DNA of 64,000 nt, taken from Sphyrna mokarran. Its lineage: Eukaryota. The stretch is taken from positions 30,442,001 through 30,506,000 of the forward strand of contig JAGIQG010000008.1 in the NCBI GenBank assembly GCA_024679065.1. Direction: 5' to 3'. A program made the translations under genes and the position numbers. The notes below the pieces were generated by a model. That model did not search any database, was not told the origin of the DNA, and saw only the letters and a list, made by a program, of their open reading frames with translations. Shown here piece after piece: positions 8,671 to 58,359 of the stretch (positions within the stretch are counted from its first letter, which is position 1; every line of letters starts with the position of its first letter).

Positions 8671-9321
8671 CCAATTTTCCCAATCTCTAATTAAAAAATT
8701 GCTTTTGCAGCCAGGCCACCACTGTGGGAGAATGGGGTGTCAGTGGAGATAGCACCCGACCTACCACAGTACCACAATCAGAACAGGCAGGGAGGACCCC
8801 TCGGTCTGCCTGAACTGCTGGCCACACACCAGCCCTCTGCCAGGAAACTATCACAAAATGGCCCTTGTTACCTGTGAAAACCTGGAGAATGAATATTGGC
8901 CTCTGCTAACTGGCCTCAAATAGGTTCTTAATAAGCCTGATCAGCTACACACCACAAATGGGCAAAAATTGATTGTACATGGAAGTGGGAAAATGTATAT
9001 TTACCTATTTATTATTGACACAAGGAAGCTTACATTAACACTGCAATGAAGTTACTATGGTGCGGCCGATGGGATGATTTGCATCTCTCCATCCACCTCC
9101 AATCCCAACCCCAGTATAGGCTGTACGTCCAGCTCACAGTTTAACAGCAATTGGCTCCTAACAGTTGCAATGTAGCAATTGGTATGAAGCAAACAGTTAA
9201 AAAAAATTGAAATGCTCCTCTGCTTAGATGAATGGACCATTTCAGAATGCGCATGCTGGTTGGCTGAACTCTGTGTTTTGATGGAACCACAGACAAAATT
9301 TTGCTTTCCTTAACTAAAGTG

Positions 9322-10484: not shown

Positions 10485-10885
10485 AGGTGAAAGAATGGAA
10501 CAGTACGTGTTCCCCAAATAACATACTGGATAGTATTTCATTCCCCAAGTGAACAAATGATATGGAACATCATTCCTCAAGTGAAAGAATGGAATGGTAC
10601 GTAATTCCCAAAGTGAAAAATTGGAAAGTAAGCCATTCCCAGAATGGGACAGTACATCATTCCCCAATTGAAATAATGGGGCAGCATGTCATTCCCAGAT
10701 GAGGACAATACAGCATTCCCAGAGTGGGACTGTAAATCATTCCCCAATTGAAAGAATAGGTCAATAAGCCATTTCCAGAATAAGGCTATACATCATTCCC
10801 AGAATGGGACAATACATTATTCCCAGAATGGGGCGCAACGTCATTCCCCAAGTGAAAGAATGGGATAGTATGTCATTCCCCAGAT
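10485..10885. repeat. Degenerate minisatellite, ~21-32 bp units
   Basis: Recurrent core CATTCCC(CAA/AG)-(GTGAAA)-GAATGGGACAGTACAT, more than 10 imperfect copies. Confidence 0.75.
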
Positions 10886-12891
10886 TTAGTCAAACACATG
10901 ATCCTTCCCTGCAGAGAAGGTCAGAATAAAACTGGGGCTTAATCCATTTTCAATTGCATTTGACACAAGGGGGCCATTTACAGCCCATGTTAGCCATCAG
11001 CATGAATGGAAAATATACCAAGAATTTGGAAATGCATTTCTTACCCGCAAGATTGCTTTTTCTGATTGTCCATGTCTCTCGCCAATGACGTCACCACAAA
11101 GGCGAGAACTTCATTTTAATTTTTTTTTGCACACATTTTAATCTAATTAGTCAACCCCTGCCCCTCACTGAATATTCAAATGACTCCTCGGCAAGGTTTA
11201 CAGCAGCTATGTAAAGACATGAATCAGCTGAGTGCATTCCCTGGGGGAGGTGGACATGCCTGGCCCAAGTTGACCTGAGGCAAGGGACAGTGCCAGCGGC
11301 AGCGGCACGAGAAAACCTCTGGAGAGTCCTACTGGTGAGAGGGTCCCATTATGCATGATGGAGTGTTAGAGGGGGCACTGAGGGCATCGAAGAGGGAATC
11401 ATCAGGCATTTGGGGTGTGCAGCAGTCATTGAGGGTGGATCTTGCAGGGACGGTGTAGGGAAGTGAGGGAGTGAGCGGGCAATGATGGGGGATCTTGCAG
11501 GCACGGTGGTTGGGGAAGTGGGCAATGAGGGGGAATCTTGCAGGCAAGGGGAAGAATTGGGCAATTAGAGGCGTACAGGCAATGGTGGGATGAGCAGTGA
11601 GGGGGGAACTTGAAGGCATGGGGAAGCAGATATTGAAGGAAGAACTTACAGACATGGGGGTGGGGGAGGGCGGAGAGCAGGCAGAAAGGGGGAAGAAATG
11701 TCTTAGATACTTCAGCTGTGGTTGTTGGCCATCAGCGGGGGAGAGTGGGAAGAGTCCCTGTTGATTATGCAATGCGCCGTGATGGTGGTAGGCGGGTGGG
11801 GTGGGTAGAAGAAGAGCCCCTGAACCCACTGTGCTGGGAGGCAGGGGAGGGGAATAGATGTTAACTTCGGAGCTGACTGGGGCACCCTTCAAAGATGGCA
11901 TTCTGATCACTATGGACCTCACCAGTGCATCTAGAGAGAGACAGGTCGGTTTTTCAGTCAGAGCTTGGCAAATAATGCAAAACTTCCATCCGAGGTGTAC
12001 ATTCATGTTGTTACTAATCCTGGTCCTGAAATTCCTATATCAGGAGAGCACACTGGAAACTGGGCAACAGATCTAATCATGGGATCACTTCTCTGTCCAT
12101 TGAAACTGGACAGATGTTTTTGGGTCTACCAGTGTGGCCAAGTTCCTGAGAAGCAATTTTACCTCGGTGTTTTCTTCCAACTGATATGTCAGTTTTGTTG
12201 TCAAATTTCAGAAAGGCAATTATTATCCTCCGTTTGAAAAACAGATTTCAAATTCCTGTGTCCCATAAGGAAATCCTATTGCATGTCAAAAATGCCAGCA
12301 ACTTGTAGAGCACCAACTGGAACGAAATGTGTGCTTTAGTCAAATACAACTGGACAAACAATTGTGCCGTTGATCAAGCAGAATGATGCCAGAGAAACGC
12401 ACTATATTTCATGCAAGCACTGCAACTCCTGGTTACACAACCCATGTACAGATGATGCAGTTTGCATCAGCAACTGCAAGGAGAAAGACAAATTAATACC
12501 TTAAATGTAACCTTTTAAAGTTCACCCCTTTGGTCCTCTTCAGAGGCCAGTGTTTCTAGCAATGACTATTTTATTTCAGATTTACAGGGGGGCATTCTTA
12601 ATTCTCAGAAATGGTTTTGGGTTGAGTGAGATGTGAAAAGCACTCACTTCTAGTTTTATCACAGTGAGGCAAACACTGAGCACACAATTTGCTCTCCTTG
12701 GGGTTGGTCATTTAAATATTATAACAAAGGTGCATACCTAATGATTTAACATATCTTCCAGGTACAATCTGGCAACTAAAGGGAGGCCAAGACTGCGTCA
12801 TGGAGAAAAGAAATGCTTTTACAGAGCTGGTTGTGGATCAGAGCATTTCCTCCTAGCCCACAAAGCTGACCTGTTTTCCCTAAATCACAGA

Positions 12892-13185
12892 GGGTGGCGA
12901 ATGGGTGGCATGGCTACTTCACAGCGCCAAGGACTTGGGTTCGAGTCCTGGCTTGGGTCACTGTCTGTGTGGAGTCTGCATGTTCTCCCCATGTCTGTGT
13001 GGGTTTCCTCCAGGTGCTCCAGTTTCCTCCTGCAATCCAAAAAATGTGCTTGCTAGGTGCATTGGCCATGCTAAGTTCTCCCTCAGTATATCCAAAATGG
13101 CACCAGAGTGTGAGACTAGGAGACTTTCACAGTAATTTCATTGCAGTGTCAATGCAAACCTATTTGTGACTAATAAATGAATCTT
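12892..13185 (+). mobile_element. V-SINE with alternative (type-2) tail
   Basis: tRNA head and V-core followed by ...cacagtaatttcattgcagtgtcaatgcaaacctatttgtgactaataaat. Confidence 0.75.
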
Positions 13186-13189
13186 ACTG

Positions 13190-13410
13190 TGGAACTTGTT
13201 GCCCCATAGTGTGGTACAGTCAGAATTATTAAGTGGTTTCAAGAAGGAGAAAGATATATTTTTGATAAGAAACAGGTTAAAGAAAAATTGGGAACAGCTA
13301 GGAAGGTAGATTTGAAACCAAAAAGAGATCAGCCATGATCTGATTGAATGGCTGACCAGGCTTGAAAGGCTGAATTGCTCACTTCTGCTCCTAATTCCCA
13401 TGTTCCTATG
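13190..13410 (+). mobile_element. CR1 LINE 3' fragment
   Basis: gatcagccatgatctgattgaatggc...ggctgaattgctcacttctgctcc and (atgttcct)n tail. Confidence 0.7.
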
Positions 13411-18461: not shown

Positions 18462-18908
18462 TTTTTTTTTAAAGAGCAACACAGCACGGGAAACAGGCCC
18501 TTCGGCCCAACGAGCCCGCGCTGCCTTCATAACTATATAGTAGCAAATCCATTATCCTATTTTATTATTCCTATATAATAATATATATATTATTCCTAAT
18601 ATGGAAAATTCTCACTATAGGGACAATTTGTTTCCCAATCAGCCTAAGAGCGAATTTTTGGGTTGTGGGAGGAAACCGGAGTGCCCGGAGAAAACCCACG
18701 CAACCACGGGGAGAACGCGCAAACTCCCGCAGACACTGGCCCAATTCCAAGTGTCTGCACAGCCACATCGATAGTCTCTGAGCTGTCATGGTGCCCTTCA
18801 GATGGTCCACATAAAGCACTCATTTACGACATGAGGTACCAGGCAACCCATGAATCAACATCCAAGAGCTGTACCCGCACCACCTGCCGAATGCATGCTC
18901 AATGTTGG
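18462..18908 (-). mobile_element. 5'-truncated copy (3'UTR only) of the young CR1 family at 28185-31085
   Basis: Near-identical to 28185-28627 (about 6 substitutions and 1 indel by eye over ~430 bp); poly-A tail on minus strand. Confidence 0.9.
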
Positions 18909-22325: not shown

Positions 22326-23461
22326 AAATGTATCCGTATCTAACAATAAAATTCCATCTTGGTGGTGGGGTGGGGATGGGAGAAGAAAGAAAGGAGACGG
22401 AAACCTTCTGGACTGTGGAGTGGAAAACTGGTTAGATCTTGCTACTTTCCAGTGAAGTAGTATGGACTGATTTCCTGCCCATTCCCTTATCCTTTAAAAT
22501 CAAGAGACTGGAGCAGACTCAATGGGCTGAATGGCCTACTTTTGCCCCTATGTCTTATATCCAAAGATTTCTGGTTTACTCTGGATATTCTGCCCATTCT
22601 AGCCTATAAGCACAAGAGCAATGCCTTTACGAACAAAGGGTTGGGTATTATAGGGAAGGGAGATGGGGTAGGGTGGGATAACACTCTGCTCCAGAAGCAA
22701 AGTTGGTGTGGGGCTGACTTGCTTAACACCAGTCTGATCCACAGTCATGACATGCTGTGGGTAAGTTCAATGGCAATCAATGGGGCTTCCACCCCTCATT
22801 TGGGAATAAGTCTCACCCCGGATGCTGCCAGCTAATCTCATCATTAGCTCCCTCAGTATCAGCAGGGGCAAAAACATTTTAGTGGGCACTGACAAGACTG
22901 CAATCAGGCCCGAGAAGGAGGATTGTAGATCCCAGATCCAGATAACCTGGGCTCTTGGGAGGGGAGAATTGGGCAGTTTTAAACATTGACTGGAATCCTA
23001 CAGCTTATGCATGGGAAAAAGGGAACTGTTGCTGTGCACAATCTGAGAATTCCTGCATTTCAGGAGTGCTTTAGCATCGTGGATCGGAGGTCAGAGCCTT
23101 TTTAACACGTGCAGTTAATTGGGTGGGTGCCTGTCTGACCAGCACTGGTCATAGGACTTCTGAGTTTGATGGGAAATTTTGGAAGTTTTGACTCTAGTCC
23201 GCCAACCATGAGCAGCGTATTATTGGGTTTAAAGCTTGTTTACCAGTTCAATTCACTCTTGATTATTTGTTTAAATACGGTGGACAGGCTGTCAATTTCA
23301 TAAGGGCAGAGGGGTGAGCTCGGGAGTGGCCAGGAAGGTGGGGGGGGGGAGCACCTGTCCTATTTTCTGTGTCCACCCCCACCTCACTGAAAACAGACCC
23401 AGCAAAGGCATGTAAAATCCAGCTCAAGGAGCGTAATATAGTGTGGATATGAACATGAAAC

Positions 23462-23770
23462 CGCACGGCAGCACAGTGGTTAGCATGCTGCCTCACAGCA
23501 CCATGGACCCTGCTTCAATTCCCAGCTTGGGTCACTGTCTGTGTGGAGTTTGCACACTTTCCCCGTGTCTGTGTGGGTTTCCTCTAGCTGCTCCAGTTTC
23601 TTCCCACAGTCCAAAGATGTGCAGGTTAGGTGAATTGGCCATGCTAAATTGCCCCTTAGTTTCAGGGGGATTAGCTATGGTTATGGGGATAGGGCCTGAG
23701 TATGATTGTGGTCAGTGCAGACGTGATGGGCTGAAAGGCCTCCTTCTAGACTGTAGGGATTCTATGATAT
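23462..23770 (+). mobile_element. HE1/V-SINE-type SINE
   Basis: Full head, V-core and CR1 tail ending gggattctatga. Confidence 0.85.
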
Positions 23771-24574
23771 CATGATTAAAAAGTGCATTTCGTGTCAAGA
23801 GACCCTTCATTAAAGTTTTATTTTAAGACCTCGGCCTCTCTGAAAATATCATGGTTCGAGTTGAAAATTTCTCCAGAGCAATCTGCCAGGGAGATAAAAA
23901 GGGTTAAATGAGTGACCTCCAATTGCCAAAATGGACACAAGGTGGACAATCCCCCAGCACGAAACAGTAAACTTCAACCTGCTCATCAAACAACAGGAAA
24001 CATGAGGCAGATGGTCAAGATGTGCCAAAACTTCCATCAAACTCAGAAGCAGTGTGACCAATGCTTGATCAGGCAGCCATCCAATTAACTGTACACATTG
24101 AAAAGGCTCCAACCTCTGACTCATGATGTTGAAGAATTCCTGCAGCGCAGGAATCCTCGGTATCAGCAAAGAGAACGTGCACAGTGACTGTTCCCCCTTC
24201 TGTTGGCATCAGCTGCAGAATATTGTTAAGTGTCTACAAATCCCCAAGCTTCTCAATGTGTTACTGAATGAATGAATTGGTAAGTATATAGAGTGTAAGC
24301 AGATAGGTTGATGAGGTAAGTGGGTCAGTGACAAGTGGATCAGGTGACAGGTGAGTGAATTGTGTGTGTCGAACAGGGTGAGTGAGTTGATGGGTTATGA
24401 GATAATCCAGGAGGGGTGGACAATTCCGGAGCTATTCAGATTGGATCAGGGGACAGTCGGGCAAGGGAGTTGGCTTGTGGGGGATAGTTATGGCAGTCAG
24501 GGGAGTTGGGCTTGTGGGGTGATTCCAGGAGTGATCAGTTGTATAGTTGCCTTACAGTTAGGTCTGACTATAAT

Positions 24575-25991: not shown

Positions 25992-26454
25992 TCAAGGGGG
26001 CCTTCGTGACACATGACAGCGCAGAGTTGCTGAGCAGAGACTGATAGCCAAGTTCTGCACACATGAGGACGGTCTTAATAGGGATCTTGGCTTCATGACA
26101 CACTATCTGTAACCACCGTAACTTGCCTGGGTTAGCAAAAAACCTCACTTACTGTGCTGTCTGGAGAAAATACACAATTCTCTAACAATGCTCAGGATCC
26201 CCTTCACACACATTGTTAGCCACTTTACCACTTGAATAGCAGGTTAGATGTAAGGATTCGCATTCTAATCAGCAATCTCTGACTGTCTGTGCTGATGTGT
26301 GCTATTGCAGACCAGAACACTGCATTTGCCTGACGAAGGCTATAGAGTCGAAAGCTTGCGAATTTACTATCAAATAAATCGGTTGGATTTAAAATTGGTG
26401 TTGTAAAACTTTACTGAGTTTACCTCAGTCCAACACCGGCATCTCTACATCATG
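25992..26454 (+). mobile_element. Penelope-like element 3' fragment (GIY-YIG C-terminus, pLTR and tail)
   Basis: Translates QGGLRDT*QRRVAEQRLIAKFCTHEDGLNRDLGFMTHYL* (stop 26110-26112); hammerhead; AATAAA; tail ...agtccaacaccggcatctctacatcatg. Confidence 0.8.
26324..26363 (+). ncRNA. Minimal type-I hammerhead ribozyme in a Penelope pLTR
   Basis: Stem I ATTTGC/GCGAAT; core CTGACGA; stem II GGC-tataga-GTC; GAAA; palindromic AGCT stem III; cleavage triplet CUU. Confidence 0.7.
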
Positions 26455-27132
26455 ACTGCCACTGAGAGGCATCTATCAGGTTTTGGACTCAATGGGGGAA
26501 CCGTCTGCTGTAAAACAATCCCTATTGCATTACCAATTTTCCCTCAGGTAGCCACTTAATTGATCTTAATTAGCCACACATCACTGCTGGGCAAGATCAC
26601 TCAGTTACACGTGGCGTTAATGACTCAACTCATAACCTTCAGAAACTCCCTGCCCTCCCTTCTCCAGAACTGCCTCTGGGTATCTGATAAGATTCCAACC
26701 CTTGTCTGCATGATACAGCAGAGCCTACTTAATCCTGTTGTGATAATTTTGTGCTTAGAAAGGACTGTAAGAATTGTAGAATAAGCATTATGTATCAGTC
26801 AGCTTCAAATTTAAAGGGACATTCCTTCCCATGTGTCATCTAAAATGATCAATCTCCATCAGACCCTGAATGAACATTCCTGTTATGGGATACTGCATTT
26901 TATGTAGAGTATAACATTCAGTGATATGGAAGCTGGCTCAAATCATTTCACTTAATCTGAACTGGTTTGAGCGTAGGGGCATACAGATCATCACTGACTA
27001 TATTTCCCAGCAGCAAAAGTTAATGGAAAGTGAACTGGCTTTCAAATTACAATTATAGTTAAGAATAAATGACTAGGACTAGGAGTTAGCACTGACACAT
27101 TTCAAACAGTGGGCAGTAAATATGGTGGTATT

Positions 27133-27499: not shown

Positions 27500-27785
27500 T
27501 AGCACAGTGGGCACAGCAGTTAGCACTGCTACCTCATAGCAACAAGTTCAATTCCTGGCTTGGGTTACTGTGTGTGTGGAGTTTGCACATTCTCCCTGTA
27601 TCTGCATGGGTTTCCTCCCACAGTCCAAAAGACATGCCTGTTAGGTGCAATTGCCCATGTAAATTCTCCCTCTGTGTACCCAAACAGTGCCGGAGTGTGG
27701 CAACTGGAGGTTTTTCACAGTAATTTCATTTCAATATTAATGTAAGCCTACTTGTGGCAATTATAAATAAACTTTAAACTTCAAA
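27500..27785 (+). mobile_element. V-SINE with type-2 tail
   Basis: Head and V-core then ccggagtgtggcaactggagg...aatgtaagcctacttgtggcaattataaataaactttaaacttc. Confidence 0.8.
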
Positions 27786-28184
27786 CTATGCTGACACGTA
27801 CACTTCAGGTACCAGATGACACTATGGACAGATTGTTACCTTGGGCATTGGGAGTATAAATGTCCAATTATTCATTCTCTTAGTGCCTATCTTATTGGTA
27901 TCATTGCCCGGTTTAGCTTTCCTGTGCAGTGCTACCTCTATGACTGCAGTATGGCTGACAGAAGATTGCTGGCCTTACAGGATACCCTCCTAGAAGGCCC
28001 AGTTTCAGAGTGAAACACATTGATGAGGCTCACAGACTTGTCAGGAACACTAAAAAGTATTTACTGACAAGGGGGGAAATTGTACAAAGGCTGACAGCCC
28101 TCCAGCTATCCTGCCCTGAAACATGTCTTGTACATGCCTTCAGACTGTTTTCTGTCTAAGAGAGGACTCCAGACCCATTCTCAG

Positions 28185-31085
28185 TTTTTTTTTAAGCGAC
28201 ACAGCACGGGAAACAGGCCCTTCGGCCCAACGAGCCCGCGCCGCCGTCATACTATATAGTAGCAAATCCATTATCCTATTTTAATATTCCTATATAATAA
28301 TATATGTATTATTCCTAATATGGAAAATTCTCACCATAGGGACAATTTGTTTCCCAATCAGCCTAAGAGCGAATTTTTGGGTTGTGGGAGGAAACCGGAG
28401 TGCCCGGAGAAAACCCACGCAACCACGGGGAGAACGCGCAAACTCCCGCAGACACCGGCCCAATTCCAAGTGTCTGCACAGCCACATCGATAGTCTCTGA
28501 GCTGTCATGGTGCCCTTCAGATGGTCCACATAAAGCACTCATTTACGACATGAGGTACCAGGCAACCCATGAATCAACATCCAAGAGCTGTACCCGCACC
28601 ACCTGCCGAATGCATGCTCAATGTTGGTCAAGTATGGACCGAATTACCTGTGGAAAAAAGCCGTAGTTAAACAGTCCTACTATATCCCTCTATCTGCATA
28701 CCGCTCATGTGGCTGTCCAAGAGACCCTTAAACAGCCCCAGCGTGCCTGCTCCCACCACCTTACTCGGCAGTGCATTCCACACCCCCACTACCCTTTGTG
28801 TGAAAAACTGCCCTCTAATATTCGTCCTATACATAGCCCCCCTCACCCTATGGCCATGACCTCTCGTCCTATCCATTTCTAAAGGTGGAAAAAGTTTACC
28901 TCCATTTACTCTATCTATACCCCTTATAATCTTATACACCTCTATGAGATCCCCTCTAAGCCGACGTCTTTCAAGGGAAAACAACCCCAGTCTATCTAAT
29001 CGTTCCTCATAAGACAGTCCTTCCATACCAGGCAGCATCCTGGTAAACCTCCTCTGCACTCTCTCCAAGGACTCCACATCCTTCCGATAGTACGGCGACC
29101 AGAACTGGGCGCAGTATTCCAAGTGAGGCCTAACCAAAGTTCTATACAACTGCAACATCAAACTCCTACTCTTGTATTCTATACCCTTTTCTATGAAAGC
29201 TAACATACTATACGCCTTCTTTATCACCTTCTCCACCTGTGAGGACACCTTCAGAGACTTGTGAACCTGCACCCCCAAGTCTCTCTGCGTCTCTATGCTC
29301 CGTATAGTTTTACCTTTTATCCTATAACTCTCTTCTACATTTTTCCGGCCAAAATGCATCACCTCGCATTTATCCGGATTAAATTCCATTTGCCATCTAT
29401 CTGCCCAGTCTACCAACCTGTCTATGTCCTGTTGTATTGCCTGACACTGCTCTTCTGTACCCGCCAATCCAAGCATCTTGGTGTCATCAGCAAATTTGCT
29501 GATCTCACCACCTACCCCTACTTCCAAGTCGTTTATGTAGACCACAAATAGAAGAGGACCTAGTACTGAGCCTTGTGGCACTCCACTAGTGACAGGCTTC
29601 CAGCCGGAAAAAGAGCCTTCCACTACTACCCTCTGTCTCCTCCTCCCGAGCCAGTTCTCGACCCATCTACATACCCGACCCTGTATCCCATGCGCCTTCA
29701 CCTTCTCTATCAGTCTACCATGAGGAACCTTGTCAAACGCCTTACTGAAATCCATGTAGACGACATCAACAGCCTGTCCTTCATCAACTGTTTTTGTCAC
29801 TTCTTCAAAAAATTCCACTAGATTTGTAAGACAAGACTTCCCCTTGACGAAGCCATGCTGCGTATCCCTGATCAGATCGCAGCGCTCCAGATGCTCATAC
29901 ATCCTGTCCCTAAGGATCCTCTCCATTAGCTTACCTATAACTGAAGTCAAGCTCACCGGCCTATAGTTCCCTGGGTGATCCCTCTGACCTTTTTTAAACA
30001 ACGGTACTACGTTTGCTATCCTCCAGTCCTCTGGGACCTCACCTGTGTCCAGGGAAGAGACAAAGATTTGCGTCAGAGGCCCAGCCAAGTCTTCCCTCAA
30101 CTCCCTTAGCAGCCTGGGGTAAATGCCATCAGGCCCCGGAGCTTTATATGTCTTTAAGCTGCCTAACAGCCCCAACACCTCTTTCCTCGTAATCCTTATT
30201 TCCCTCAACCGATCCTCAACTTTGTCAACATCAGGCACAGACATCTGTCCAGTCTCCTGCGTGAATACCGACGCAAAGTATTCATTCAGGATCTCCCCCA
30301 TTCCCTCAGGCTCTAAGCATAGATCCCCTCCTCTGTCCCTAAGAGGTCCATTCTTGCCTCTAACCATCCTTTTGCTCCTTACATAGGTGTAAAATGCCTT
30401 TGGATTTTCCTTAATCCTACCTGCCAGAGCCACCTCGTGGCCTCTTTTTGCCTTTCTAATACCCCTTTTAAGATCCCGTCTACACTCTCTATAAGCTTCC
30501 AGCGCTGTCTCAGTCCCTAGTTGCCTAGATCTAATGTAAGCCTCTCGCTTTTTCTTGATCAAGTTCTCAATCTCCCTGGTAAGCCACGGTTCTCTAATCC
30601 TACCTTTCCCATCCTTCCTCCTTGCCGGCACGTATCTTTCCTGCAGAGAGTTTAGTTTTCCCTTGAAAGACTCCCACATGTACCTCGTCGACCTGCCCTC
30701 AAAAAGCTTATCCCAGTCGGTATCTTTAAGATCTTGCCTAATCTGGCCGTATCTAGCCCTCCCCCAGTTAAATACCCTCCCTTTTGGGCCAGTCTCGTCC
30801 TTTTCCATTAATATCCTAAAGCAGACAGAGTTGTGATCACTATTTGACACCTGCTCTCCTACCTCGACGTCAACCACCTGGCCTGGCTCATTTCCCAGAA
30901 CCAAATCCAGTATAGCCCCATCTCTAGTCGGGCCATCCACATACTGCTCCAAGGACCCTTCCAAAACACACTGTACAAATTCCTCCCCGTCCACTCCTAC
31001 AGCCCTGGGCACACTCCAATCTACTCCAGGAAAATTGAAATCTCCCACTACTACCACCCTATTTTTCCTACACTTATCTAAAATG
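28185..31085 (-). mobile_element. Young 5'-truncated CR1 LINE with ~480-bp 3'UTR and poly-A tail
   Basis: Uninterrupted ORF2; CR1 3' end gggctcgttgggccgaagggcctgtttcccgtgctgt followed by an A tail. Confidence 0.95.
28667..31085 (-). CDS. CR1 LINE ORF2 (partial APE endonuclease plus reverse transcriptase), 5'-truncated
   Basis: VVVGDFNFP, ILDLVL, SDHN (APE); KAPGPDG, NYRPVSLTS, YMDFSKAFDKV, GVPQGSVLGPLLF, FADDTK (RT); ~805 codons with no stop or frameshift. Confidence 0.92.
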
Positions 31086-31602
31086 TGTAGTTCCCCAAGG
31101 CAGGTGCCTCTCTCTGCTGCATTGCCCTTAAAGAGACAATTACCACACTTAGCATTGGCACAGCAAGGGCACTGAGGAGGAATATGCTTTACTTGGCTCA
31201 AATGTTGAGCTCTGCGCCAAATTAAAATGAAATTCTTATTCATCCTTTGATAAATACAAATCAAAGATGAACAAAGTTTAAAAGGAGATGTGATCAATGA
31301 TCAAAATGTCTTTGAATAGCTAGCACTCAAGTGTGTTTACCTTCTTTGTCCTGTAGATGTAACATATTGATAAACTCAGGTTCCACCTTATTCCATATTC
31401 AAAGATTTATGAAAATTCTTCCAGTATGTTTCAACTGAACTCTCATTAATTCTATGAGACCTCATTAGATTATCTTATTTTATTGACATCCGTTTGTCTG
31501 GGGAGATGGTGGACAGTGCCCAGGATTCTGTGTTGAATATCATCTGTAGTTGCTGTACAGGCTGATTCATGAGTGCTCACCCTTTACACACTGAAGCCCT
31601 TC

Positions 31603-32900: not shown

Positions 32901-33024
32901 GGGTTTGACAGTCTGCTGAGACTTGATTCTAGCAGCTCTGAGTGCACCTAATCTTTGTTTGCCATGGACTTGCTTGTAGTTCATGAGAGGTGCCTTTGTG
33001 GTTGCAATTATTTCAGTCCATTCA

Positions 33025-33240
33025 GTTAAAATTTATTTATCAGTCACAAGTAAGGCTTACATTAACACTGCAATTAAGTTACTGTGAAATTTCCCTAGTC
33101 ACCACATTGCGGTGACTGTTCGGGTCAATGCAGCTAATCAGCATGGTTTTTTAGACTGTGGGAGGAAACCCACGCAGACACCAGGAGAGTGTGCAAGTTC
33201 CACACAGACAGTGACCCAAACCGGGATTTGAACCCAGCCT
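33025..33240 (-). mobile_element. V-SINE with type-2 tail, partial
   Basis: Reverse type-2 tail (gtcacaagtaaggcttacattaacactgcaa) and V-core. Confidence 0.75.
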
Positions 33241-39461: not shown

Positions 39462-39577
39462 CTGCAATGGAAAAACAAAGATCAAAGCACTTGTTACACT
39501 TTCAAAATTTTCTCGGCAGTTTTGCTTCACTTTAGCAATAATGGTGAACTGTTAAACTTATCAGCCAATGATAAGAC

Positions 39578-39647
39578 GGTGGCGTGGGCTCGTTGGGCCG
39601 AAGGGCCTGTTTCCTGTGCTGTGTTGCTCTTTGCTCTTTGTTCTTTG
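39578..39647 (+). mobile_element. Extreme 3' tip of a CR1 LINE
   Basis: ggcgtgggctcgttgggccgaagggcctgtttcctgtgctgt with a (GCTCTTT)n tail; taagac duplicated on both sides. Confidence 0.7.
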
Positions 39648-40159
39648 TAAGACCGAATTAGACCTAATTCTATTCCTGTGTTTTATGGTCTTAAAAGAGT
39701 ACAGATGATTTTTTTTACTGATAAGACATAAGACATAGAATTAGACCACTTGCCCATTGAGTCTGTTCTGCCATTAATCCTGGTTAATACTTTTCTCATC
39801 TCCATTCTTTATCCATCTTTTTTATGACCATCTAATGGATTATGTGTATTTGTAATTTCAGTTTTGAAACTCCATGAAATTTGACTGATTTAAGACAAAC
39901 TATTACAGCTGGAGTTACACTTTGTCAGTGTGAATGATGGGTCAAACACCATAGGATATTAATGCATTCAACTGCCTTCCAACAGGACTCATTTAGATAT
40001 TCTACATCTCCATATCCATTTTACATCCATGATCAAGTGAAATACAATTGCATTCTATATTAATATTCAGTTTTCCAACACAAAGTTCAGTTCACTATGT
40101 ACTGATGCTTTAACCATCCAGAGATAGAAGGACTTAAGATAGGCACTTAAAAAATAAAA

Positions 40160-40727
40160 ATCATAGAATATAATCCTTACAGTGCAAAAGAAGGCCATTC
40201 AGCCCAGTGAGTCTATACCAACTCTCTGACACAGTATCTTACCAACTCTCTGACACAGTGTCTTACCAACTCTCTGACACAGTGTCTTACCAACTCTCTG
40301 ACACAGTGTCTTACCAACTCTCTGACACAGTGTCTTACCAACTCTCTGACACAGTGTCTTACCAACTCTCTGACACAGTATCTTACCAACTCTCTGACAC
40401 AGTATCTTACCAACTCTCTGACACAGTATCTTACCAACTCTATTCCCATAAACCCACACATTTACCATCTAGTTAATCCATCTCGATGGTTAATCCATCT
40501 AGTTTACAGATGCTAAGGGACAATTTACCATGGCCAATCTAATCTGCACATCTTTGGACTGTGCGTGTGTTGGGGGGGCAGGGGTAGAATGCGGGCGATG
40601 TAACTGGAGTCCCCATGGAAACCTACGCAGACACGGAGGCTAATGTGCAAATTTGACACAGTCACCTAAGGCCAGAACTGAACCTGGGTGCCTGGTGCTA
40701 CAGAGTAGCAGTGCTAACCATTGTGCT
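40160..40727 (-). mobile_element. HE1/V-SINE-type SINE containing a tandem expansion
   Basis: Reverse head at ~40680-40727, V-core, CR1 tail at 40160-40215. Confidence 0.75.
40216..40441. repeat. 24-bp minisatellite, 9 full units plus 10 nt
   Basis: Unit taccaactctctgacacagtRtct; R order A, G x5, A x3. Confidence 0.95.
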
Positions 40728-43094: not shown

Positions 43095-43445
43095 ATGTTT
43101 ATAAAATATGAGCAGCATTGAGAAGGTAGATAGTCAACTTCTTTTCCCAAAGGTAGTGGGATCTAAAACTAGAGGGCATAGGTTTAAGGTGAGAGTGGAA
43201 AGATACAAAAGGGTTCAGAGAGGCAATTTCTTCACACAGAGGACAGTGAGTAACCGGAACGAGCTGTCTGAAGCACTAATAGAGGCAAGTGCAAATTTGT
43301 TTTTTTAAAAACTATTTAGACAGTTAAATGAGTAAGATTAGTATAGAGGATATGGGCCAAAAGCAGGCAACTGAGACTAGCCTAGTGGTAAAAACCAGGT
43401 TAGGCTGAAGGGCCTGTTTCCAAGCTGTAAATCTCAATAACTATG
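43095..43445 (+). mobile_element. CR1 LINE 3' fragment
   Basis: LFPKVVGSKTRGHRFKVRVERYKRVQRGNFFTQR; ggctgaagggcctgtttcc end. Confidence 0.85.
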
Positions 43446-45323: not shown

Positions 45324-45516
45324 CATGATGTAAAGATGCCGGCGTTGGATTGGGGTGGTAAGAACTCAGTAAGAATTTAGCAACACCAATTATTAATCCA
45401 ACCGATTTATTTGATAGTAAATCCGCGAGCTTTCAACACAAGAGTGTTGAAAGCTCGCGGATTTACTATCAAATAAATCGGTTGGATTAATAATTGGTGT
45501 TGCTAAATTCTTACTG
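45324..45516. mobile_element. Palindromic Penelope-like insertion
   Basis: 13-bp TSD tactctgactagt (45311-45323, 45517-45529); perfect 73-bp arms 45367-45439 and 45444-45516; pLTR tail catgatgtaaagatgccggcgttgga on the left. Confidence 0.85.
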
Positions 45517-45796
45517 TACTCTGACTAGTGCCATATCTATCTATCTACGCTCGAAAAAAAAAAGCACTGAATATAATTTGGCATACAAAGATTTCATCAT
45601 TATTTATATCGAAGTCATTTCACACTATTGAATGATTATTAATCTCTAACTACTATTTTTGAGCTACATAAAGGCATAATATTGTTGCTGCTGGTTAATT
45701 GCAAAGATGATCACTAATCTTATCTGCTTATCCCTAAGATATAAAGTATCAGAGTACCATGCTAATACTGATTATCATGCTTAGTTTTATCTTTTG

Positions 45797-46392: not shown

Positions 46393-46902
46393 AATATGAT
46401 GTAGAGATGCTGCCTTGGACTGGGGTAAACACTGTAAGAAGTCTCACAACACCAAGTTAAAGTCCAACCAGTTTATTTGATAGTAATCCCACAAGCTTTT
46501 GAAAACACTGTTCTTTTGTCAGCAGAGACCGACAGCCAAGTTCCGCATACGAGGATGACATCAACTGGGATCTTGGGTTCATGTCACACTATCTGTAACC
46601 CCCATGACTTGCCTGGGCTTGCAACATCTCATTTACTGTCCTGTCTGGAGACAAACACATCTCTTTAACCTGTGCTAATGCTATTTCCACTCATATTGTC
46701 TGCATCTTTAAGACTTGAATAGCAAATTAGCTGTAAAGATTTGCATTCTAATCAGTGTTCTGTAAACTGTGTGTGACTTTATATGCTCTTCTCTGATCAG
46801 AACCTTCCACACGCCTGAGGAAGGAACAGCGTTTCTGAAAGTTTGTGGGATTATATCAAATAAACTGGTTGGACTTTAACCTGGTGTTGTGAGACTTCTT
46901 AC
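46393..46902. mobile_element. Penelope-like insertion with inverted pLTRs, GIY-YIG C-terminal remnant and hammerhead (46809-46850)
   Basis: 11-bp TSD tgaaggaatta (46382-46392, 46903-46913); ...WDLGFMSHYL*; CTGAGGA A GGAAC-agc-GTTTCT GAAA. Confidence 0.85.
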
Positions 46903-48959
46903 TGAAGGAATTAGCACATAGTTATTTTTGCTGGTCAGGTCTCGATGCTCAGATTGAAGAGAAAGTAGGACAGAGTCAGTAAGAAATATACCATCGTTGT
47001 CTCTTTTACACTCTTGGGAGTGGCCTAAAATACGGTGGCAATGATTGCATGTAGATTTTGTTGATCTGTTTGAGGGTTACATATTCTTGGTTATAATTAA
47101 TTAACACTGAAAGTGGCCAAATATTATATGAAATCTACTATATCTAAACAAAGCACTGAAAAACTTGACAAAATCTTTGCAAGACTTGGTGAACTGAAAC
47201 AGATGGTTAGTGATAATGGATCACAATTTACTGCAGAAGAGTTTAAGGATTATCTCGAACAGAAAGGTAATCAGCATTTAAATCCATACCATATCATCCA
47301 TCAACCAATGAATTAGCTGAAAGATTTGTTCAATCCTTGAAATAGTCTCTAAACGCTGCATTGTGTGACTAGCTTTCTGGCATCTTATAGAGCTACACAT
47401 GCAACTACCCAAAGCTGACCTGCATTACTATTCTAAGAGAAAGTTGAGAACTACGTTTGATTTGTTATTGCCTCCATAAATTTCAGAGATAGTAAAGCGT
47501 TAATAACAACCTCAAGTTGCTAGATAAGAAGCGAAGGCAAAGTAAAACTCATTTCAACAAGGAGATTATGTGTTAGCGCGTAATTATGCCATGAGTGAAA
47601 AATGAACATCAACCATAGCTTTTTTAAAAATAGGTCCAATTTCTTCAAACTGACAAAGAGTTAGCTTGACAGTGCCCTGCTGACCAATTGTTGTCATCTC
47701 AAAATGATTTGTCAGAATCATCTTCAGAAGTACCAACTTGTTTTGTCTCTGGTGTTGTGAATATTACTATGGAATCTGAGTTGCCCAATGACTGCATCTA
47801 TGCTATTGTACCAGGTGAGAATGATGCAGAATTTTTTCCAAGAGAAAAACTGTCCATTGAAATTCCAAATCATACAGTCAAGGATAACCAAATTCTGGAA
47901 CTTCATATACAACTGAAGAGGGATAGATGTATGATCGACTTTCTTATTGACTGTGTATAATGATTAATGATGCATATCACTGTGAGGATTATTGATCTTA
48001 TGTATGACATCGTAGTCATTTGTTGTCATGACCATGGAAATGAAGGGGGAGGGATGTTGTATATTTAAGAGTTGCATGATGGCTTCAAGAACAGATCACA
48101 CGGCTTGATGGTGGTATCATTAAGGTATTCCAGAGGCTCCTGCTTTTGTTTCAGTTTCTACTCTGGATAGGTAACTTCTCTTTCAATAAACCTTGTTGTT
48201 GAATCATTGCATGCAAACCACATCTTTTTCTCATTATGTAAAATGCACAACCCCCACATTACATTAGGATCTCTGAACAAAGAATGGAAAAAAGTATTCT
48301 CTCGCCAGCAATCATCTTAAATACCAGAGAAAAATTTCCATGGGGTTGTTGCCATTTGGGCTGATAGCCTGAAGAATCCATATTAACAGTCACTTATAAC
48401 CATTTGTGATATTATTCTGGCAGTTCCAGCAGCTTCCCACTGGAGAAATTCCTACCAGGATTTGGCTTGATTATGATGGCTGTCACAGTCAAATAGTTAA
48501 CAAAAACGAGGTTGATATGATACCTTTTAATCTATCAATATTTACTGTTAATCTGATGAATGGCCTTATTATCAAAGTACTTCAGACCAGTGACTCTCAT
48601 GGAGTTGAGCCAACAGGAATCATTACTGGGGCAATTAATTTGTGTTTCTCTTTACAGATAAATGGGTGGAATCAAAGAAACACGCATCTCTAAAATTCCA
48701 GTAAAAATCCCAATATGTGACCTATCCATTCATCTCAGCCTAGCTATATTGCCTTGAGTGAAAAAAAAATGTGAAGGAATTGGGAGGCTGCTGGAATAGC
48801 TGGTGGGATTTGGTGGGGGGAGTGGGGCAGTGATGGGGAGATAAGAAGACAATTCCAAAATAATTTTCCTCACACCAGGAAAGTTTTGGTTGTTGTCAAC
48901 CTGTTCCTTCACTGAGTTAGTTGCTAATCTTGCAAGGTCACTTCAAGCTTGCTTTCTCA

Positions 48960-49120: not shown

Positions 49121-51739
49121 GGCACAATCCTTGTGCCTGTTATAAAATTTTACTCCAAGAGAAAAGATGTTTCCCATTTTCTCACATTTCGAATTCTACA
49201 ACAGAATCAGGCAAAGTTATATTTTAAAAGATAAACTTCATTTATTAAGATTGGCGTGGTGATGTTATGTTTGCAATGCTTAACTGGTTACAACAGGAAA
49301 CAAGGCAAGATGCAACAAAGCAAGGAATGGGTGATTAACCAACATCAGAAATGCACTATTTGTTATTCCTTAGAAGCTAACAAACTACTTTATTTTCTCT
49401 TCACAAAGCATAGAAAGTAACTTCACCACAGTAAATTTGTGAGTAAAATTTTCAAGCAGTGGTCCATAAAATGTTTTGCAACAGAGAATGGAGCAATGTG
49501 AATCACAGCTGACAATGCAAGTCTCAGCCTTAGTTCCTAATTGGAAATGATAGTGCACATTCATAGAGTGTGCTCTGCATCAGCAAGCCTGTCACTAACT
49601 GGCTTCAATTATATGTTTCCCTTTGTCCATTTCTCAGTTGTCTTTGCCCCCTACCTCTGCTACCAACAGGTGAGGAACAATTTGTGTGTCTCAATGTTGC
49701 TAAAATTCAACTATTTAATGAACCATCACCCTGTCAAATCTTGAGAATGCTCAGTCGAGATCATTACTACTTAGTGGGAAAGCTTCTGGCAAAAGGTAAT
49801 AAGATTTTGTGAGATGGTTTGCTGCAATATTAATAAGTTTTTGCACTTATTCGCTTGTTACTGAAAACCCCTGTAGAGATGTATTATGAATAGCAGCAGT
49901 GGAAGGGCAAAATGTTTTAGATTTTGCTATTACATTTATTTAAGTCGAAAGGCACATTGCAAATGGAAAACAAAAAGAAAGAAATACATAACATGTCTAT
50001 TATATCAGATAGGAGAAAAAACAAGTCAGTCAGGACCCTTCTATCTGAAGCTAGGGATATGAATAAAATATTCTCTTTTCATATACGTTGATGTAAACTA
50101 ATTTTGGATTAGTAAGAGCGAGCCAGGTAACCAATTTAATTATGGCACAAGTATGTGAACAATTTTCAGTTTTTCCAATGACTCCATTCTGAGATTGTAG
50201 AATAAAAGATGCTTGTTTTTACGGTGACTGTGCCCTCTGTCAAACTGCTTGTTGTAAAAGTGTGTTACTATAGATCACCTTTCTTCTATTTTGAGGGAGA
50301 GGAAAACAGAAGAGTTGTGCTGTGTTTTTAATCAAAAGATCATCATCCATGTTTTGACTCCATTGGCATTGTCACAATGTAGATTTGAGATATATTTTCC
50401 TAAATATTGTACCCTTTAAATGCTGGAAATGGAATTGAGCCTAACTTCTTAAGGGGAAGTGTTATATAGCAGATGCTGCTCAATATCCTTACCTGCAGGA
50501 ACAGTACTTGTCTCAACAGCTTTAGCTCATTATACATCGGGCATTGCGGAAAACTCTGCTAGTTCACCAATTCTTGATCAGTGTTGCAGTTCAGTAAATG
50601 GAATATATAATTTAATTGTTTTCTGTGTCCATTTATTTAATTAAGTGCAGATTAATGTGGCCCAGGAGATAATCCTTTCAAATGGCACAATGCCAGAAGA
50701 TGAACATTAACCTGTCTTTTTTAAACAGGTGAAGATTTGCTCCCTCTATCTCAGTTCAGTTCTTGCCAACACATTACGGTTACTAATATTATCCAGTAAA
50801 CACTTTGTTGAATTAAAATATATAGCAAACTCCTTACATTACTTGTAAAACATTTAAAGTTTACTTATTAGCGTCACAAGTAGATCTACAGTACAACACT
50901 GCAGTTAAGTTACTAAGAAAATCCCCTAGTCACCACACTCTGGTGCCTTTAAGTTACACCGAGCAATTAATATCCATGAGATAATGCTGGACACATGAAG
51001 CCTGACAGTAATAATGCAGCATTTTTTGTTTCCAAATTCAAGATTTGTAAGAAGTCAGATCAATCTCAGAATACAAAATTGAAGGCTGGATTTTCCTGCA
51101 AACAATGGATGTGATTCTACAAAAAAATTCTAAGTGCCAAACAAGTGAGAAAATGGGAGAGAAACACAGATTTTTTTCAGTGAACTGAGAGTAACAATCT
51201 TAAGGCACTTAATGCAAAAAGAAATTCTTGCCAGCAGAGCTAGAGCTGCCAAGGAAGCAGGCTGCTGACCTCTTGGGGCGCCGTTGTGCAGGCACCTATA
51301 TTGGGAAATCTCCTGCGATTACCCCCTCCACCCCTAGATATCACAATCCCTCTTCTCCACAACATGCCAATCACCCTAGTGCTGATCTCTCCCCTCAACC
51401 ATCCCACAGACATGGGGACTGCCCCCAAACCCCATCCCCCACCATCCCCTGTAATGGTCTACATGCCCTCTGCCAATCACCCCAACTGCAGAGTTCCCTC
51501 CCAGCCTGAGCACCACTTTTGTAGAGATCCCTCCCTATCCAATCCCACCCATCCCTTCCCTTCCCACTCCTACCTCGATTAGGATCCACTACAACACAGG
51601 CCTCATCCCTTTGGCGCTGCCCAGGCACAGTTATAGTACCTGATGGGCAGTTTCAGGGTACCCAGTCAACAGTGCAAAGTGCCAGGACACCAGGTAGAAT
51701 GGCACTGCTCCATGAACACTGCTTGGTACTCCGCCAGCT

Positions 51740-52476
51740 GTGATGTCGATGTTGGACCGGAGATGCCGGCGTTGGACTGGAGTAAACACCGTAAAAAGTC
51801 TCACAACACCAGCTTAAAGTCCAACTAATTTATTTGGTAGTAAATTCACCAGCTTTTGGGGTTTGCCCCTTTGTCAAATGAATGGAGAGTTCTGGCTCGG
51901 ACAGAACATGTACAGCACATACAGTTTACAGATTACTGATTAGAACGCGAGTCTTTCCAACTAACCTGCTATTCAAGTCTTAAAGATGCCGACAATGTGA
52001 GTGGAAAGAGCATTGGGCATAGGTTAAAAAGATGTGTATTGTCTCCAGACAGTACAGTAAGTGAGATTTTGCAAACTCAGGCAAGTCATGGGGTTACGGA
52101 TAGTGTGACAAGAACCCAATATCCTGGTTGAGACATCCTCATGGGTTCTTGTCACACTATCTGTAACCTCCATGGCTTGCCTGGGTTTGCAAAACCTCAC
52201 TTATTGTACTGTCTGGACACAATACACATCTCTTAATACTATGCAAAATGCTCTTTTCATTCACATTGTCTGCATCTTTAAGACTTGAATAGCAGGTTAG
52301 TTGTAAAGACTTGTATTCTATTCAATAATCTGTAAACTGTGTGTACTGTTACATGCTCTGTCTGAGGCCAGAGCTCTCCATCCACCTGACAAAGGGACAA
52401 ACCCCGAAAGCTTGTAAATTTACTATCAAATAAATTGGTTGGCCTTTAAGCTGGTATTGTGAGACTTCTTACTGTG
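51740..52476. mobile_element. Penelope-like element forming a ~330-bp inverted repeat
   Basis: Arms ~51787-52118 and 52142-52476; each arm carries a hammerhead remnant and the GF.SHY C-terminus; tail agatgccggcgttggactgg on the left. Confidence 0.85.
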
Positions 52477-56104: not shown

Positions 56105-56645
56105 CAGAGTCGTAAGGGTTTACAACAATGGAAACAGATCTTTCTGTCCAACTTGTCCATGCTGCCCAGTTTTCATCATTAAGCTATTCCCAATTGTCCA
56201 CATTTGGCGCATATCCCTCTATACCCATCTTAACCATGTAACTGTCTAAATGTCTTTTAAAAGACAAAATTGTACCCACCTTTACTACAACCTCTGGCAG
56301 ATCGTTCCAGACACTCACCATCCTCAGTGTGAAAAAAAATTGTCCTTTTGTATCTCTTCCCTTTCACCTTAAACCTATGCCCCCTAGTTTTAGGCTCCAC
56401 TACTTTTGGGAAAAGGTGTGACTATCTACTTTATCTATGCCTCTCACGACTTTATAGACCTCAATAAGATCACCCTAAGCCTCCTACACTCCAGGGAAAA
56501 AGTTCCAGTTTATCCAGTCTCTCCTCATAACTTAAACCATCACATCCAGGTAGCATCTGAGTAAATCGTTTCTGCACTCTTTCTAATTTAATAATATCCT
56601 TTTTATAGTAGGGTGGCCAAAACTGTATACAGTATTCCAATTGAG
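56105..56645 (-). mobile_element. CR1 LINE 3' fragment
   Basis: LEYCIQFWPPYYKKDIIKLERVQKRFTQMLPG...LSYEERLDKLELF. Confidence 0.85.
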
Positions 56646-58359
56646 GCAATGAGGCAGTTAATATCATGAACTGTTAACAGTTCAGCCTTAGGAGGTCACC
56701 TTAATCCCTCAATGAATCATTGCCTAGTAGACATTCTCATTATTATTATAAGATGAAAACATGCGAATTAGGAGAAGACAATCACTCAGCCCTTCGAGCC
56801 TGCTCCACCTTCAAAAAGATCATGGTTGATTTGGTTGTAATCTCAGCTCTATATCCCTGCCTACCCCGATAACCTTTCATCCATTCATATTATATACTGG
56901 ACGCAATTCTCTGGCCATTCACGCCAGAGAATACAATGTCAGTGGGATTCTCCAGTCCCGCTGGAGTGAACGGAGATTTGGCTGAGCACCGAATTCTCTG
57001 TCCTTACTTGTAGCTGTGGTGGGGTTTGAATAGCTGGAAAATTCTGGGCATTAAATGGTCTATATTCGTGGAGTCAATTTGTTCCATTCTCTATTTTTCC
57101 AGTGTGGAGAATCAAGTCAGGCAGTGGCAGCCAGAACACTTAGGAGCAGATTTTCCTCTTTTGCATTTAGACATAACACAATTTTCAAGTTGGAACATAA
57201 ACCAGTAAGCCAGGCAGGAAGGATTGCATGCCTGTGATGTGCATGAAACACTCTTTCACAATTCCCCTCCATGAGCTATCCTTGCTGACTTATGCCCAAA
57301 TGAAAGAGAAGAAACTTGTCAATTAGGGCATTAGCTTTAAGTAGCTTGCAAGCATATAGAAAAACAACATGCAACATGGACTACTTAGAACTAATCCACT
57401 ATTAAAATAAAGGTAATCTGATCAGGACTATGTATTCTAAACTTCAAAACTGGGATCAAATGGTAAATTTAACAGTTTTCTCACCCCTTTATTACAGTAC
57501 CAGTTCTTCAAGTTGTGCTTCTTTCAATTTCAATTTATTTACTAGGTATTAATGAAATTACCATTACATCCTCCAGACTATCTGCACTTTTTATAACAAG
57601 GAATATAAAAGCAGGGAGGTTATGACGGAGCTGTATAAAATGGTCATTATGCAGCAGCAAGAGTACTGTGTGTAGTGGCCTAATGAATATCCTGTGCAGG
57701 GTCAACACCAGGGCATCTTGGTTCCCCCCCACCTCAGTCTTCTCTTCTCTAAGGGATACAACATCAGCCTAAGCTATTCCTCTTCACAGCTGAAACACTC
57801 CAGCCCTGGCGACATCCTGGTGAATAACTTGCCTGAGAATCAGTCACTATATATCAGTCATTATATATCAAAAGTAATTAACTTTTGAGATGCTTTGATG
57901 TACCAACCTAGTGTATCAACACATTTATTAAAATTACGACCATCTCACCAAACAAATATCCATAATACGATTGAAAATCAAACATGCAGCATGGATTTGA
58001 GTATCTTAGAATGTTCATATAGTAAAAGGCAAATTTTCAGCCCAATGTACCTGTTAATTGCTCAATGTATATACTCTGCACCCAAGTTCTGGCCCATCTT
58101 CTGTTTTCTAAGTTTTTGTCTGATTACATTTTAAACATGAACAAGCTTCAATAATTGTTGTGGTAATGAATTACATATTCTAATAATGCTTTATATTTGT
58201 AAAAAAAAAGACCTTCTTAATATGGCAGCATTAATTCTAAATTTATGTCACTTTGCCCCTTTAGCAATGATTCACTCACTGTGAAAATAATCTTTCACTA
58301 TTTACCCTTCTTTACTCTTTAATAATCTTCAACACTTCAAGGACAGCATGGTGGTACAG

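What the first reader, a model, noticed from the sequence alone, without database searches (positions are those of the whole stretch)
28185..28666. CR1 LINE whose 3'UTR contains the V-SINE core domain
Seen: between the ORF2 stop and the CR1 3' end, the minus strand at ~28338-28463 reads gtgtctgcgggagtttgcgcgttctccccgtggttgcgtgggttttctccgggcactccggtttcctcccacaacccaaaaa...ttaggctgattggg...aaattgtcccta. This is collinear with the central domain of the HE1/V-SINEs scattered through this window, but has no tRNA head. The same arrangement is in the independent copy at 18462-18908, so it belongs to the mobile unit rather than being a later insertion. Known: HE1 SINEs share only their 3' tail with HER1 (CR1) LINEs, and the origin and function of the V domain are unresolved. 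Inference: either the LINE captured a SINE 3' half (reverse tail exchange) or the V domain has a cis-role that also benefits LINEs.
Basis: partly seen in the sequence, partly recalled or inferred. Interest (0 to 1): 0.75.

Follow-up and report, generated by a model that had tools for sequence, protein, structure and literature searches.

The report
Shark LINE carrying a SINE core
A young jumping gene (a CR1 LINE) of a shark-like fish appears to carry in its tail end the conserved core of a different, parasitic repeat family (V-SINEs), probably picked up by recombination; this would give a way to test what that core does, but the link to the LINE's coding part is seen in only one copy so far.

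Summary
The V-like segment is real. 28337-28469 (minus strand) matches the central domain of the window's V-SINEs at 100 of 130 columns (0 of 1000 shuffles), with no tRNA head. It sits in a 454-nt 3'UTR behind an open CR1 ORF2; three ordinary CR1 ends measure 49-61 nt.

The second copy (18462-18908) starts 39 nt downstream of the ORF2 stop, so it shows that UTR+V+tail is mobile, not that it belongs to the LINE. Indirect evidence still favours one LINE unit: no leftover LINE tail, both parts young, and a 10-nt microhomology at copy 2's 5' end.

The direction is SINE to LINE: ORF2 nests among cartilaginous-fish CR1s, and other CR1 ends lack V. The donor was not a local dead copy (8-9 CpG against a mean of 1.35). 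A cis-role is neither shown nor excluded.

A 2016 paper says such domains were not found in LINEs. Nine searches found no V-bearing LINE, but Repbase and Dfam could not be searched. Verdict: new variant of a known kind, family-level linkage unproven.

The parts
28667..31093 (-). CR1 ORF2, 5'-truncated inside the endonuclease domain, open for 808 codons; stop codon at 28669-28667
   Evidence: the stop-to-stop frame runs on to 31300, which looks like flank (by eye)
28470..28666 (-). Proximal 3'UTR segment of unknown origin (197 nt), shared with copy 2 from 28627 down
   Evidence: no second match in the window beyond copy 2; no hit in Rfam, Pfam in 7 frame pieces (53), protein search of one frame (72), plasmids or two contig collections (54, 55); fold z -1.13 (48)
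28337..28469 (-). Headless V-SINE central domain (about 130 nt)
28246..28336 (-). AT-rich spacer (23% GC); colinear with the SINE post-V region but not significantly similar
28194..28250 (-). CR1-type 3' terminal stem-loop, the likely RT recognition signal
   Evidence: (z -2.15 for 28185-28336; 4 of 200 shuffles)
28185..28193 (-). A9 tail; no clear target-site duplication
18462..18908 (-). Copy 2: 5'-truncated copy holding only proximal UTR, V, spacer, stem-loop and A tail
   Evidence: 10-nt match between element 28632-28623 and target DNA 18458-18449
39572..39650 (+). 57-nt fragment 91% identical to the terminal stem-loop, ending in short pyrimidine-rich repeats instead of an A run; very short copy or V-less sister subfamily
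23460..23778 (+). Example of a full local V-SINE with tRNA-like head, V domain and CR1-like tail (tail A), used as comparator
12890..13190 (+). Example of a local V-SINE with a different tail (tail B) joined at the same 3' edge of V
56110..56647 (-). Ordinary old CR1 3' end with a short V-less UTR (61 nt), used as comparator
43097..43435 (+). Ordinary old CR1 3' end with a short V-less UTR (49 nt), used as comparator

Best explanation
A recently active CR1 LINE subfamily of a cartilaginous fish has a lengthened 3'UTR containing the headless central (V) domain of a V-SINE, acquired once from a SINE and since copied as part of the LINE RNA. SHOWN: the anatomy of one ORF2-bearing copy; an independent second insertion of the 3' 440 nt; ORF2 nested among V-less CR1s. 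INFERRED: that most copies of the family have this 3' end; and the route. The likeliest route is that CR1 reverse transcriptase primed on a V-SINE RNA (or a SINE/LINE hairpin recombinant), copied tail and V domain, and switched to LINE mRNA at the edge of the tRNA head. A 5'-truncated SINE insertion into a master LINE's UTR gives the same product. The capture is older than the present copies, from an ancestor or sister of the local SINE family. The element moves by ordinary target-primed reverse transcription from the terminal stem-loop, and V most likely rides as a tolerated passenger, as it does in the MER6 DNA transposon.
For: One unit: no CR1 hairpin between the ORF2 stop and V, and only a 5-error match past the A tail, so a nested insertion into a complete LINE is ruled out. 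Both parts are young: copies 97.5% alike, and an open 808-codon frame survives in 220 of 500 simulations at 1.25% divergence, 13 of 500 at 5% and 1 of 500 at 10%. Copy 2's 5' end looks like a truncation: the target DNA matches the element exactly for 10 nt across the start point, including 5 nt that copy 2 lacks; 0 of 2967 random window stretches reach 10. Direction: ORF2 sits inside an 18-row clade whose named rows are all chondrichthyan (99/98 support), on its own stem with two unnamed proteins. 3 of 3 measurable ordinary CR1 ends have 49-61 nt UTRs against 454. No V-domain hit in 85 related loci, 36 of them with at least 300 nt downstream. Module edges: similarity starts at the end of the head and stops where tail-A and tail-B SINEs diverge. 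Donor not a local dead copy: LINE-V keeps 8-9 CpG (17 SINE copies: mean 1.35), four of them at sites where 0 of 17 copies have CpG, and has the longest branch, 0.23.
Against: ORF2 and V are seen together in one copy only; no genome was held and no read-level data were obtained, so copy number and the share of V-bearing copies are unknown. The 85 comparison loci are mostly distant (32-63% amino-acid identity), and no DNA was available for the closest relatives (80-83%). The 197-nt proximal segment has no known origin, so the history involves at least one more step. The V core is better kept than its flanks (9 of 67 against 17 of 59, P=0.046, boundaries chosen after seeing the data; dead copies 13.6% against 14.5%), which a pure passenger model explains only if the constraint acted in the donor SINE lineage. 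The tail is mosaic-looking, so the crossover point is not fixed.
Confidence: 0.6

Rival explanations
1. Same capture, but V is kept because it works in cis for the LINE RNA (stability, ribosome or ORF2p recruitment, localisation, or promotion of template switching). It would then be a portable retrotransposition-enhancing element.
For: Changes since the split from the local SINE master avoid the two-hairpin core (P=0.046). 15 of the 17 predicted core pairs equal the commonest pair in the SINE copies. Two young copies within 64 kb suggest a successful family.
Against: The test is post hoc and cannot tell constraint in the donor SINE from constraint in the LINE. The V fold is no more stable than shuffles (z 0.17 and -0.15). 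Ordinary CR1s in the same window moved without V. MER6 carries a headless V though it moves as DNA (PMC6887750).
Confidence: 0.2
2. The 440-480 nt unit (proximal segment + V + tail) is a separate non-autonomous element with an unknown head, and copy 1 is a one-off chimera made when RT switched from that RNA to a CR1 mRNA near the stop codon.
For: Copy 2 holds nearly the whole unit and none of ORF2. The 39572 fragment shares the tail without V, and has an 11-of-13 match to the sequence around the ORF2 stop just upstream (6 of about 600 random stretches do as well), which could mark a V-less form of the same LINE.
Against: No B box or tRNA likeness in the proximal segment; T runs inside the unit could stop Pol III (general knowledge). 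Copy 2's 5' end shows truncation-type microhomology. The switch would have to fall within 39 nt of the stop. Both parts are equally young.
Confidence: 0.15
3. This LINE lineage is the source of the V domain: V arose as part of a CR1 3'UTR and SINEs took it with the tail.
For: [quoted passage not shown] LINE-V has CpG where local SINEs are nearly fixed for TG/CA.
Against: V-SINEs range from cnidarians to vertebrates (PMC4824008), while this ORF2 is a derived chondrichthyan branch. No V in 85 other CR1-like loci or the window's other CR1 ends. The similarity starts exactly at the end of the SINE head.
Confidence: 0.04

Closest known systems
HE1 V-SINE / HER1 CR1 LINE pair of sharks and rays (listed in PMC3747384, table passage; original papers not seen)
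   Same: CR1-clade LINE and a tRNA-headed V-SINE sharing a 3' stem-loop; the local SINEs fit this description.
   Different: The sharing known for the pair is the 3' tail (recalled; standard SINE-LINE model). Here the LINE also holds the SINE's central domain, and its UTR is 454 nt, not about 55.
MER6/MER6A Tc1-Mariner MITE of mammals (PMC6887750, parts 1 and 3 of 5 read)
   Same: A headless V-SINE piece carried and amplified by an unrelated mobile element.
   Different: MER6 is a non-autonomous DNA transposon; here the host is an apparently autonomous retrotransposon of the same clade as the SINE's partner, so V passes through RNA and can be assayed in cis.
Ceph-domain-like sequence in RTE 5'UTRs, Ingi-3_AC and R4-1_ADi (PMC5786205, parts 1, 3, 4 of 5 read)
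   Same: Part of a SINE conserved body found inside LINE UTRs; for Ingi-3_AC the author suggests LINE-SINE recombination.
   Different: There the LINE is mostly the donor and the site is the 5'UTR of RTE; here it is the V domain, a CR1 3'UTR, and SINE-to-LINE direction.
Ordinary chondrichthyan CR1 LINEs (55-69% amino-acid identity; libraries in PMC13343379)
   Same: EN+RT ORF2, terminal hairpin, 5' truncation.
   Different: Long composite 3'UTR; A9 end instead of a microsatellite in both copies. The 3' ends of the published consensus sequences could not be read (cells cut at 400 characters).

Membership tests
CR1 clade LINE | ORF2 with apurinic endonuclease and reverse transcriptase domains | tested here: met
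   Pfam PF14529 (E 4e-09) and PF00078 (E 4.9e-34)
CR1 clade LINE | ORF2 phylogeny within vertebrate CR1 | tested here: met
   33-row tree of the C-terminal 300 aa: inside a clade of chondrichthyan-labelled and unnamed relatives, 99/98 support. I picked 24 of the 240 listed proteins and 8 of 85 loci; no L2 or Crack outgroup; midpoint root.
CR1 clade LINE | 3' terminal stem-loop | tested here: met
CR1 clade LINE | 3' terminal short tandem repeat (recalled feature) | tested here: inconclusive
   copies 1 and 2 end in an A run; the 39572 fragment ends in short repeats
CR1 clade LINE | 5'UTR and ORF1 | not testable with these tools
   copy is 5'-truncated near 31090; no genome held
V-SINE superfamily | Central V domain (80 bp per PMC4824008, about 120 bp per PMC6887750) | tested here: met
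   100 of 130 columns against the local SINE consensus, 0 of 1000 shuffles; not aligned to a published V consensus
V-SINE superfamily | tRNA-derived head with A and B boxes | tested here: not met
   so the unit is not a V-SINE, it only carries the domain
V-SINE superfamily | Non-autonomous, Pol III transcribed | not testable with these tools
   copy 1 is joined to an open ORF2; no expression data obtained
V-bearing CR1 subfamily (proposed) | ORF2 joined to the V-bearing UTR in several independent copies | tested here: inconclusive
   1 copy with ORF2 and V, 1 copy with V but no ORF2, 1 tail-only fragment; no close relatives in public contig collections

The most novel reading that the evidence does not exclude
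An autonomous, recently active vertebrate LINE family has taken up the V domain and keeps it under selection because it improves retrotransposition in cis. This would be the first functional role for a pan-metazoan SINE core domain, and would remove the stated objection to the idea that such domains mediate SINE-LINE exchange.
Probability: 0.2. Interest if true: 0.8.

Novelty: new variant of a known kind. Interest (0 to 1): 0.5.

Why it matters
Why SINE central domains have been conserved since the cnidarian-bilaterian split is an open question. [quoted passage not shown] Kojima 2018 has since shown part of the Ceph domain in LINE 5'UTRs. A young CR1 with an open ORF2 and the whole V domain in its 3'UTR would be a direct counter-example for V and would show module flow from parasite to host element. 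It would also make V testable in a standard cis retrotransposition assay with and without the domain. If V is only a passenger, the case is a neat but modest example of repeat chimerism, comparable to MER6.

Tried and rejected
No whole genome is held, so family copies could not be collected. Rfam: nothing in the window at gathering score, one E 2.9 chance hit in the UTR. ARAGORN: 0 tRNA genes.

None is a member of this family. Exact motif scans for the tail and the proximal UTR: 0 hits in genome and viral contigs. The only profile hit among the 85 loci is the hairpin of L085, not V.

The idea that the proximal UTR is a coding fragment (for example a transposase) or a small RNA got no support. 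The idea that the AT-rich spacer is a G-to-A-drifted copy of the SINE's post-V region was not significant (108 and 113 of 1000). Special stability of the V fold was rejected. A polyadenylation signal about 90 nt upstream of the A run is too far to explain it (general knowledge). No target-site duplication over 6 nt was found.

Sequencing runs: 18 of 21 listed rows hold part of 28184-29400; X1 0.96 (may be the source), X2 0.51, and X3-X5 of three other organism labels 0.25-0.35. None was laid on the sequence, so which part they hold is unknown and they are not used as evidence.

Earlier scan notes: nothing in 4 look-ups. Published chondrichthyan CR1 consensus sequences exist in the supplement of PMC13343379, but only the first 400 characters of each are served, so the zero motif hits there mean nothing; that supplement may bear on novelty.

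Full report
Setting. The window is repeat-rich vertebrate DNA with more than a dozen copies of one SINE family. Named relatives of the LINE protein with the highest identity come from sharks, rays and a chimaera (55-66%; turtle and bird CR1s 43-53%), so the host is taken to be a cartilaginous fish. No whole genome is held.

The observation. On the minus strand a 5'-truncated CR1 ORF2 runs without a stop for 808 codons from about 31093 to a stop at 28669-28667 (Pfam endonuclease and RT domains). Behind it lie a 197-nt segment of unknown origin (28666-28470), a V-like segment (28469-28337), an AT-rich spacer (28336-28246), a terminal stem-loop (28250-28194) and nine A's. A profile built from 14 SINE copies of the window, none of them the finding, hits this UTR at E 4.2e-24 from model position 74 on, that is, without the tRNA-like head. 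Against the profile's consensus the V segment has 100 of 130 identical columns and beats 1000 of 1000 shuffles; the upstream segment shows no likeness to the head (738 of 1000 shuffles do as well) and the spacer none to the SINE's post-V region (679 of 1000; 108 of 1000 with a transition-tolerant matrix). The similarity is real and confined to the central domain and the terminal hairpin. That this domain is the published V domain rests on recall and on descriptions in PMC4824008 and PMC3747384 (passages); the defining paper is not held.

What copy 2 does and does not show. The copy at 18462-18908 is 97.5% identical over 448 nt with unrelated flanks, so UTR, V and tail move together and moved recently. 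But it begins 39 nt downstream of the ORF2 stop. It cannot show that the unit belongs to the LINE; that link is seen once.

Three indirect results favour one LINE unit. First, no CR1 hairpin lies between the stop and V, and none of note past the A tail, so this is not a short element nested in a complete LINE; ORF2 must have been copied from the distal tail. Second, the ages agree: an open frame of this length survived 220 of 500 simulations at 1.25% divergence, 13 of 500 at 5% and 1 of 500 at 10%, counting substitutions only. Third, the target DNA just past copy 2's tail matches the element exactly for 10 nt across copy 2's start (28632-28623 against 18458-18449; 0 of 2967 random stretches reach 10, 6 reach 9). 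Microhomology of this kind is typical of 5'-truncated LINE insertions (general knowledge), and it shows that the template went on at least 5 nt further. Against: a 57-nt fragment at 39572 shares the tail (91%) without V and has an 11-of-13 match to the stop region just upstream (6 of about 600 controls), possibly a V-less sister form; and a one-off template switch cannot be excluded.

Direction. In a 33-row tree of the C-terminal 300 aa (24 of 240 listed proteins and 8 of 85 loci, chosen by me; midpoint root), the ORF2 lies inside an 18-row clade whose named members are all chondrichthyan (99/98), on a long stem with two unnamed proteins of 80-83% identity (100/100). Ordinary CR1 ends have 49, 57 and 61 nt between the end of ORF2 and the hairpin; this element has 454; a fourth end could not be measured but is also short by eye. 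None of 85 related loci, mostly distant and 36 with at least 300 nt downstream, has a V hit. V-SINEs occur from cnidarians to vertebrates (PMC4824008). So V is a gain in this LINE lineage. The captured piece has module edges: it starts where the head ends and stops where two SINE subfamilies of the same window switch to different tails.

Donor and age of capture. LINE-borne V is 79-80% identical to the local SINE consensus (17 SINE copies: 79-92%, leave-one-out) and has the longest branch in a V tree, 0.23, with no supported sister. It keeps 8-9 CpG against a mean of 1.35, and at four of these sites 0 of 17 SINE copies have CpG. It is therefore not a decayed local copy; it left the SINE lineage before the local copies spread, or came from another V-SINE family, and has since been replicated in an active master. 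The terminal hairpin is ambiguous: its distal half is like ordinary CR1 ends, its 5' arm like the SINE tail, and alignment scores are close (52 against 41-49). Template switching and a truncated SINE insertion into a master both fit.

Function. Differences from the SINE consensus fall less often in the two-hairpin core (9 of 67) than outside it (17 of 59; P=0.046, boundaries chosen after inspection), whereas dead copies decay evenly (13.6% against 14.5%). 15 of 17 predicted core pairs equal the SINE majority pair, but the fold is no more stable than shuffles (z 0.17, -0.15). This shows constraint somewhere on the path between the two masters, not that it acted on the LINE. Passenger status is the simpler reading; a cis-role remains open at about 1 in 5.

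What is known. Luchetti and Mantovani 2016 (PMC5804259, passages) state that no such conserved domains had been found in LINE sequences. [quoted passage not shown] Luchetti 2019 (PMC6887750, parts 1 and 3 of 5) describes a headless V-SINE inside the MER6 transposon. Passages of PMC11481361, PMC5499810, PMC13343379, PMC6036668 and PMC5753468 added nothing on V in LINEs. Nine literature searches (listings and abstract starts) showed no V-bearing LINE. Repbase, Dfam and subscription papers were not searchable, and the 3' ends of the chondrichthyan CR1 consensus sequences in the supplement of PMC13343379 were cut off, so the family may already be deposited without comment.

Verdict. The element is a CR1 LINE (membership tests met except the tail repeat and the missing 5' part) and not a V-SINE (no head). 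It most likely represents a young subfamily that captured the V domain. Rough odds: LINE subfamily with V as passenger 0.6, with a cis-role 0.2, separate short element plus one-off chimera 0.15, LINE as source of V 0.04. Novelty: new variant of a known kind. Interest 0.5, held down by the single ORF2-linked copy and by precedents for chimeric repeats.

Noticed in passing
window 12890-13190 (+), 27500-27780 (+), 33020-33240 (-), 58350-58600 (+), tail-only pieces near 50850-50950 and 9006-9059: A second V-SINE subfamily with the same head and V domain but a different tail ending in A/T-rich repeats; it parts from the main subfamily at the 3' edge of V. Its partner LINE was not identified.
   Followed up: partly
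window 39540-39650 (+): Tail-only fragment of the same CR1 type ending in short pyrimidine-rich repeats, with a weak match to the ORF2 stop region about 25 nt upstream; possible V-less sister or parent form.
   Followed up: partly
window 40211-40441: 24-bp unit repeated 9.6 times at 98% match, inside the tail of a V-SINE copy on the minus strand: a recent tandem expansion within an old repeat.
   Followed up: no
window 51760-52485, 46396-46905, 45325-45517, 26033-26457: Another repeat family of about 400 nt that occurs several times as head-to-head inverted pairs; identity not determined.
   Followed up: no
window 10487-10885: Degenerate tandem array with nested 24-, 32-, 56- and 80-bp periods; not examined for coding potential.
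   Followed up: no
L085:81-520; proteins P0056, P0122, P0124: CR1 sequences close to those of cartilaginous or other fish occur in records labelled as bacteria (Aeromonas, Carnobacterium, Klebsiella, Proteus) on short contigs, most likely host DNA contamination of assemblies.
   Followed up: no
window 28645-28666 (-): Just after the ORF2 stop there is a pyrimidine run followed by a splice-acceptor-like motif; whether LINE transcripts or host introns use it was not tested.
   Followed up: no
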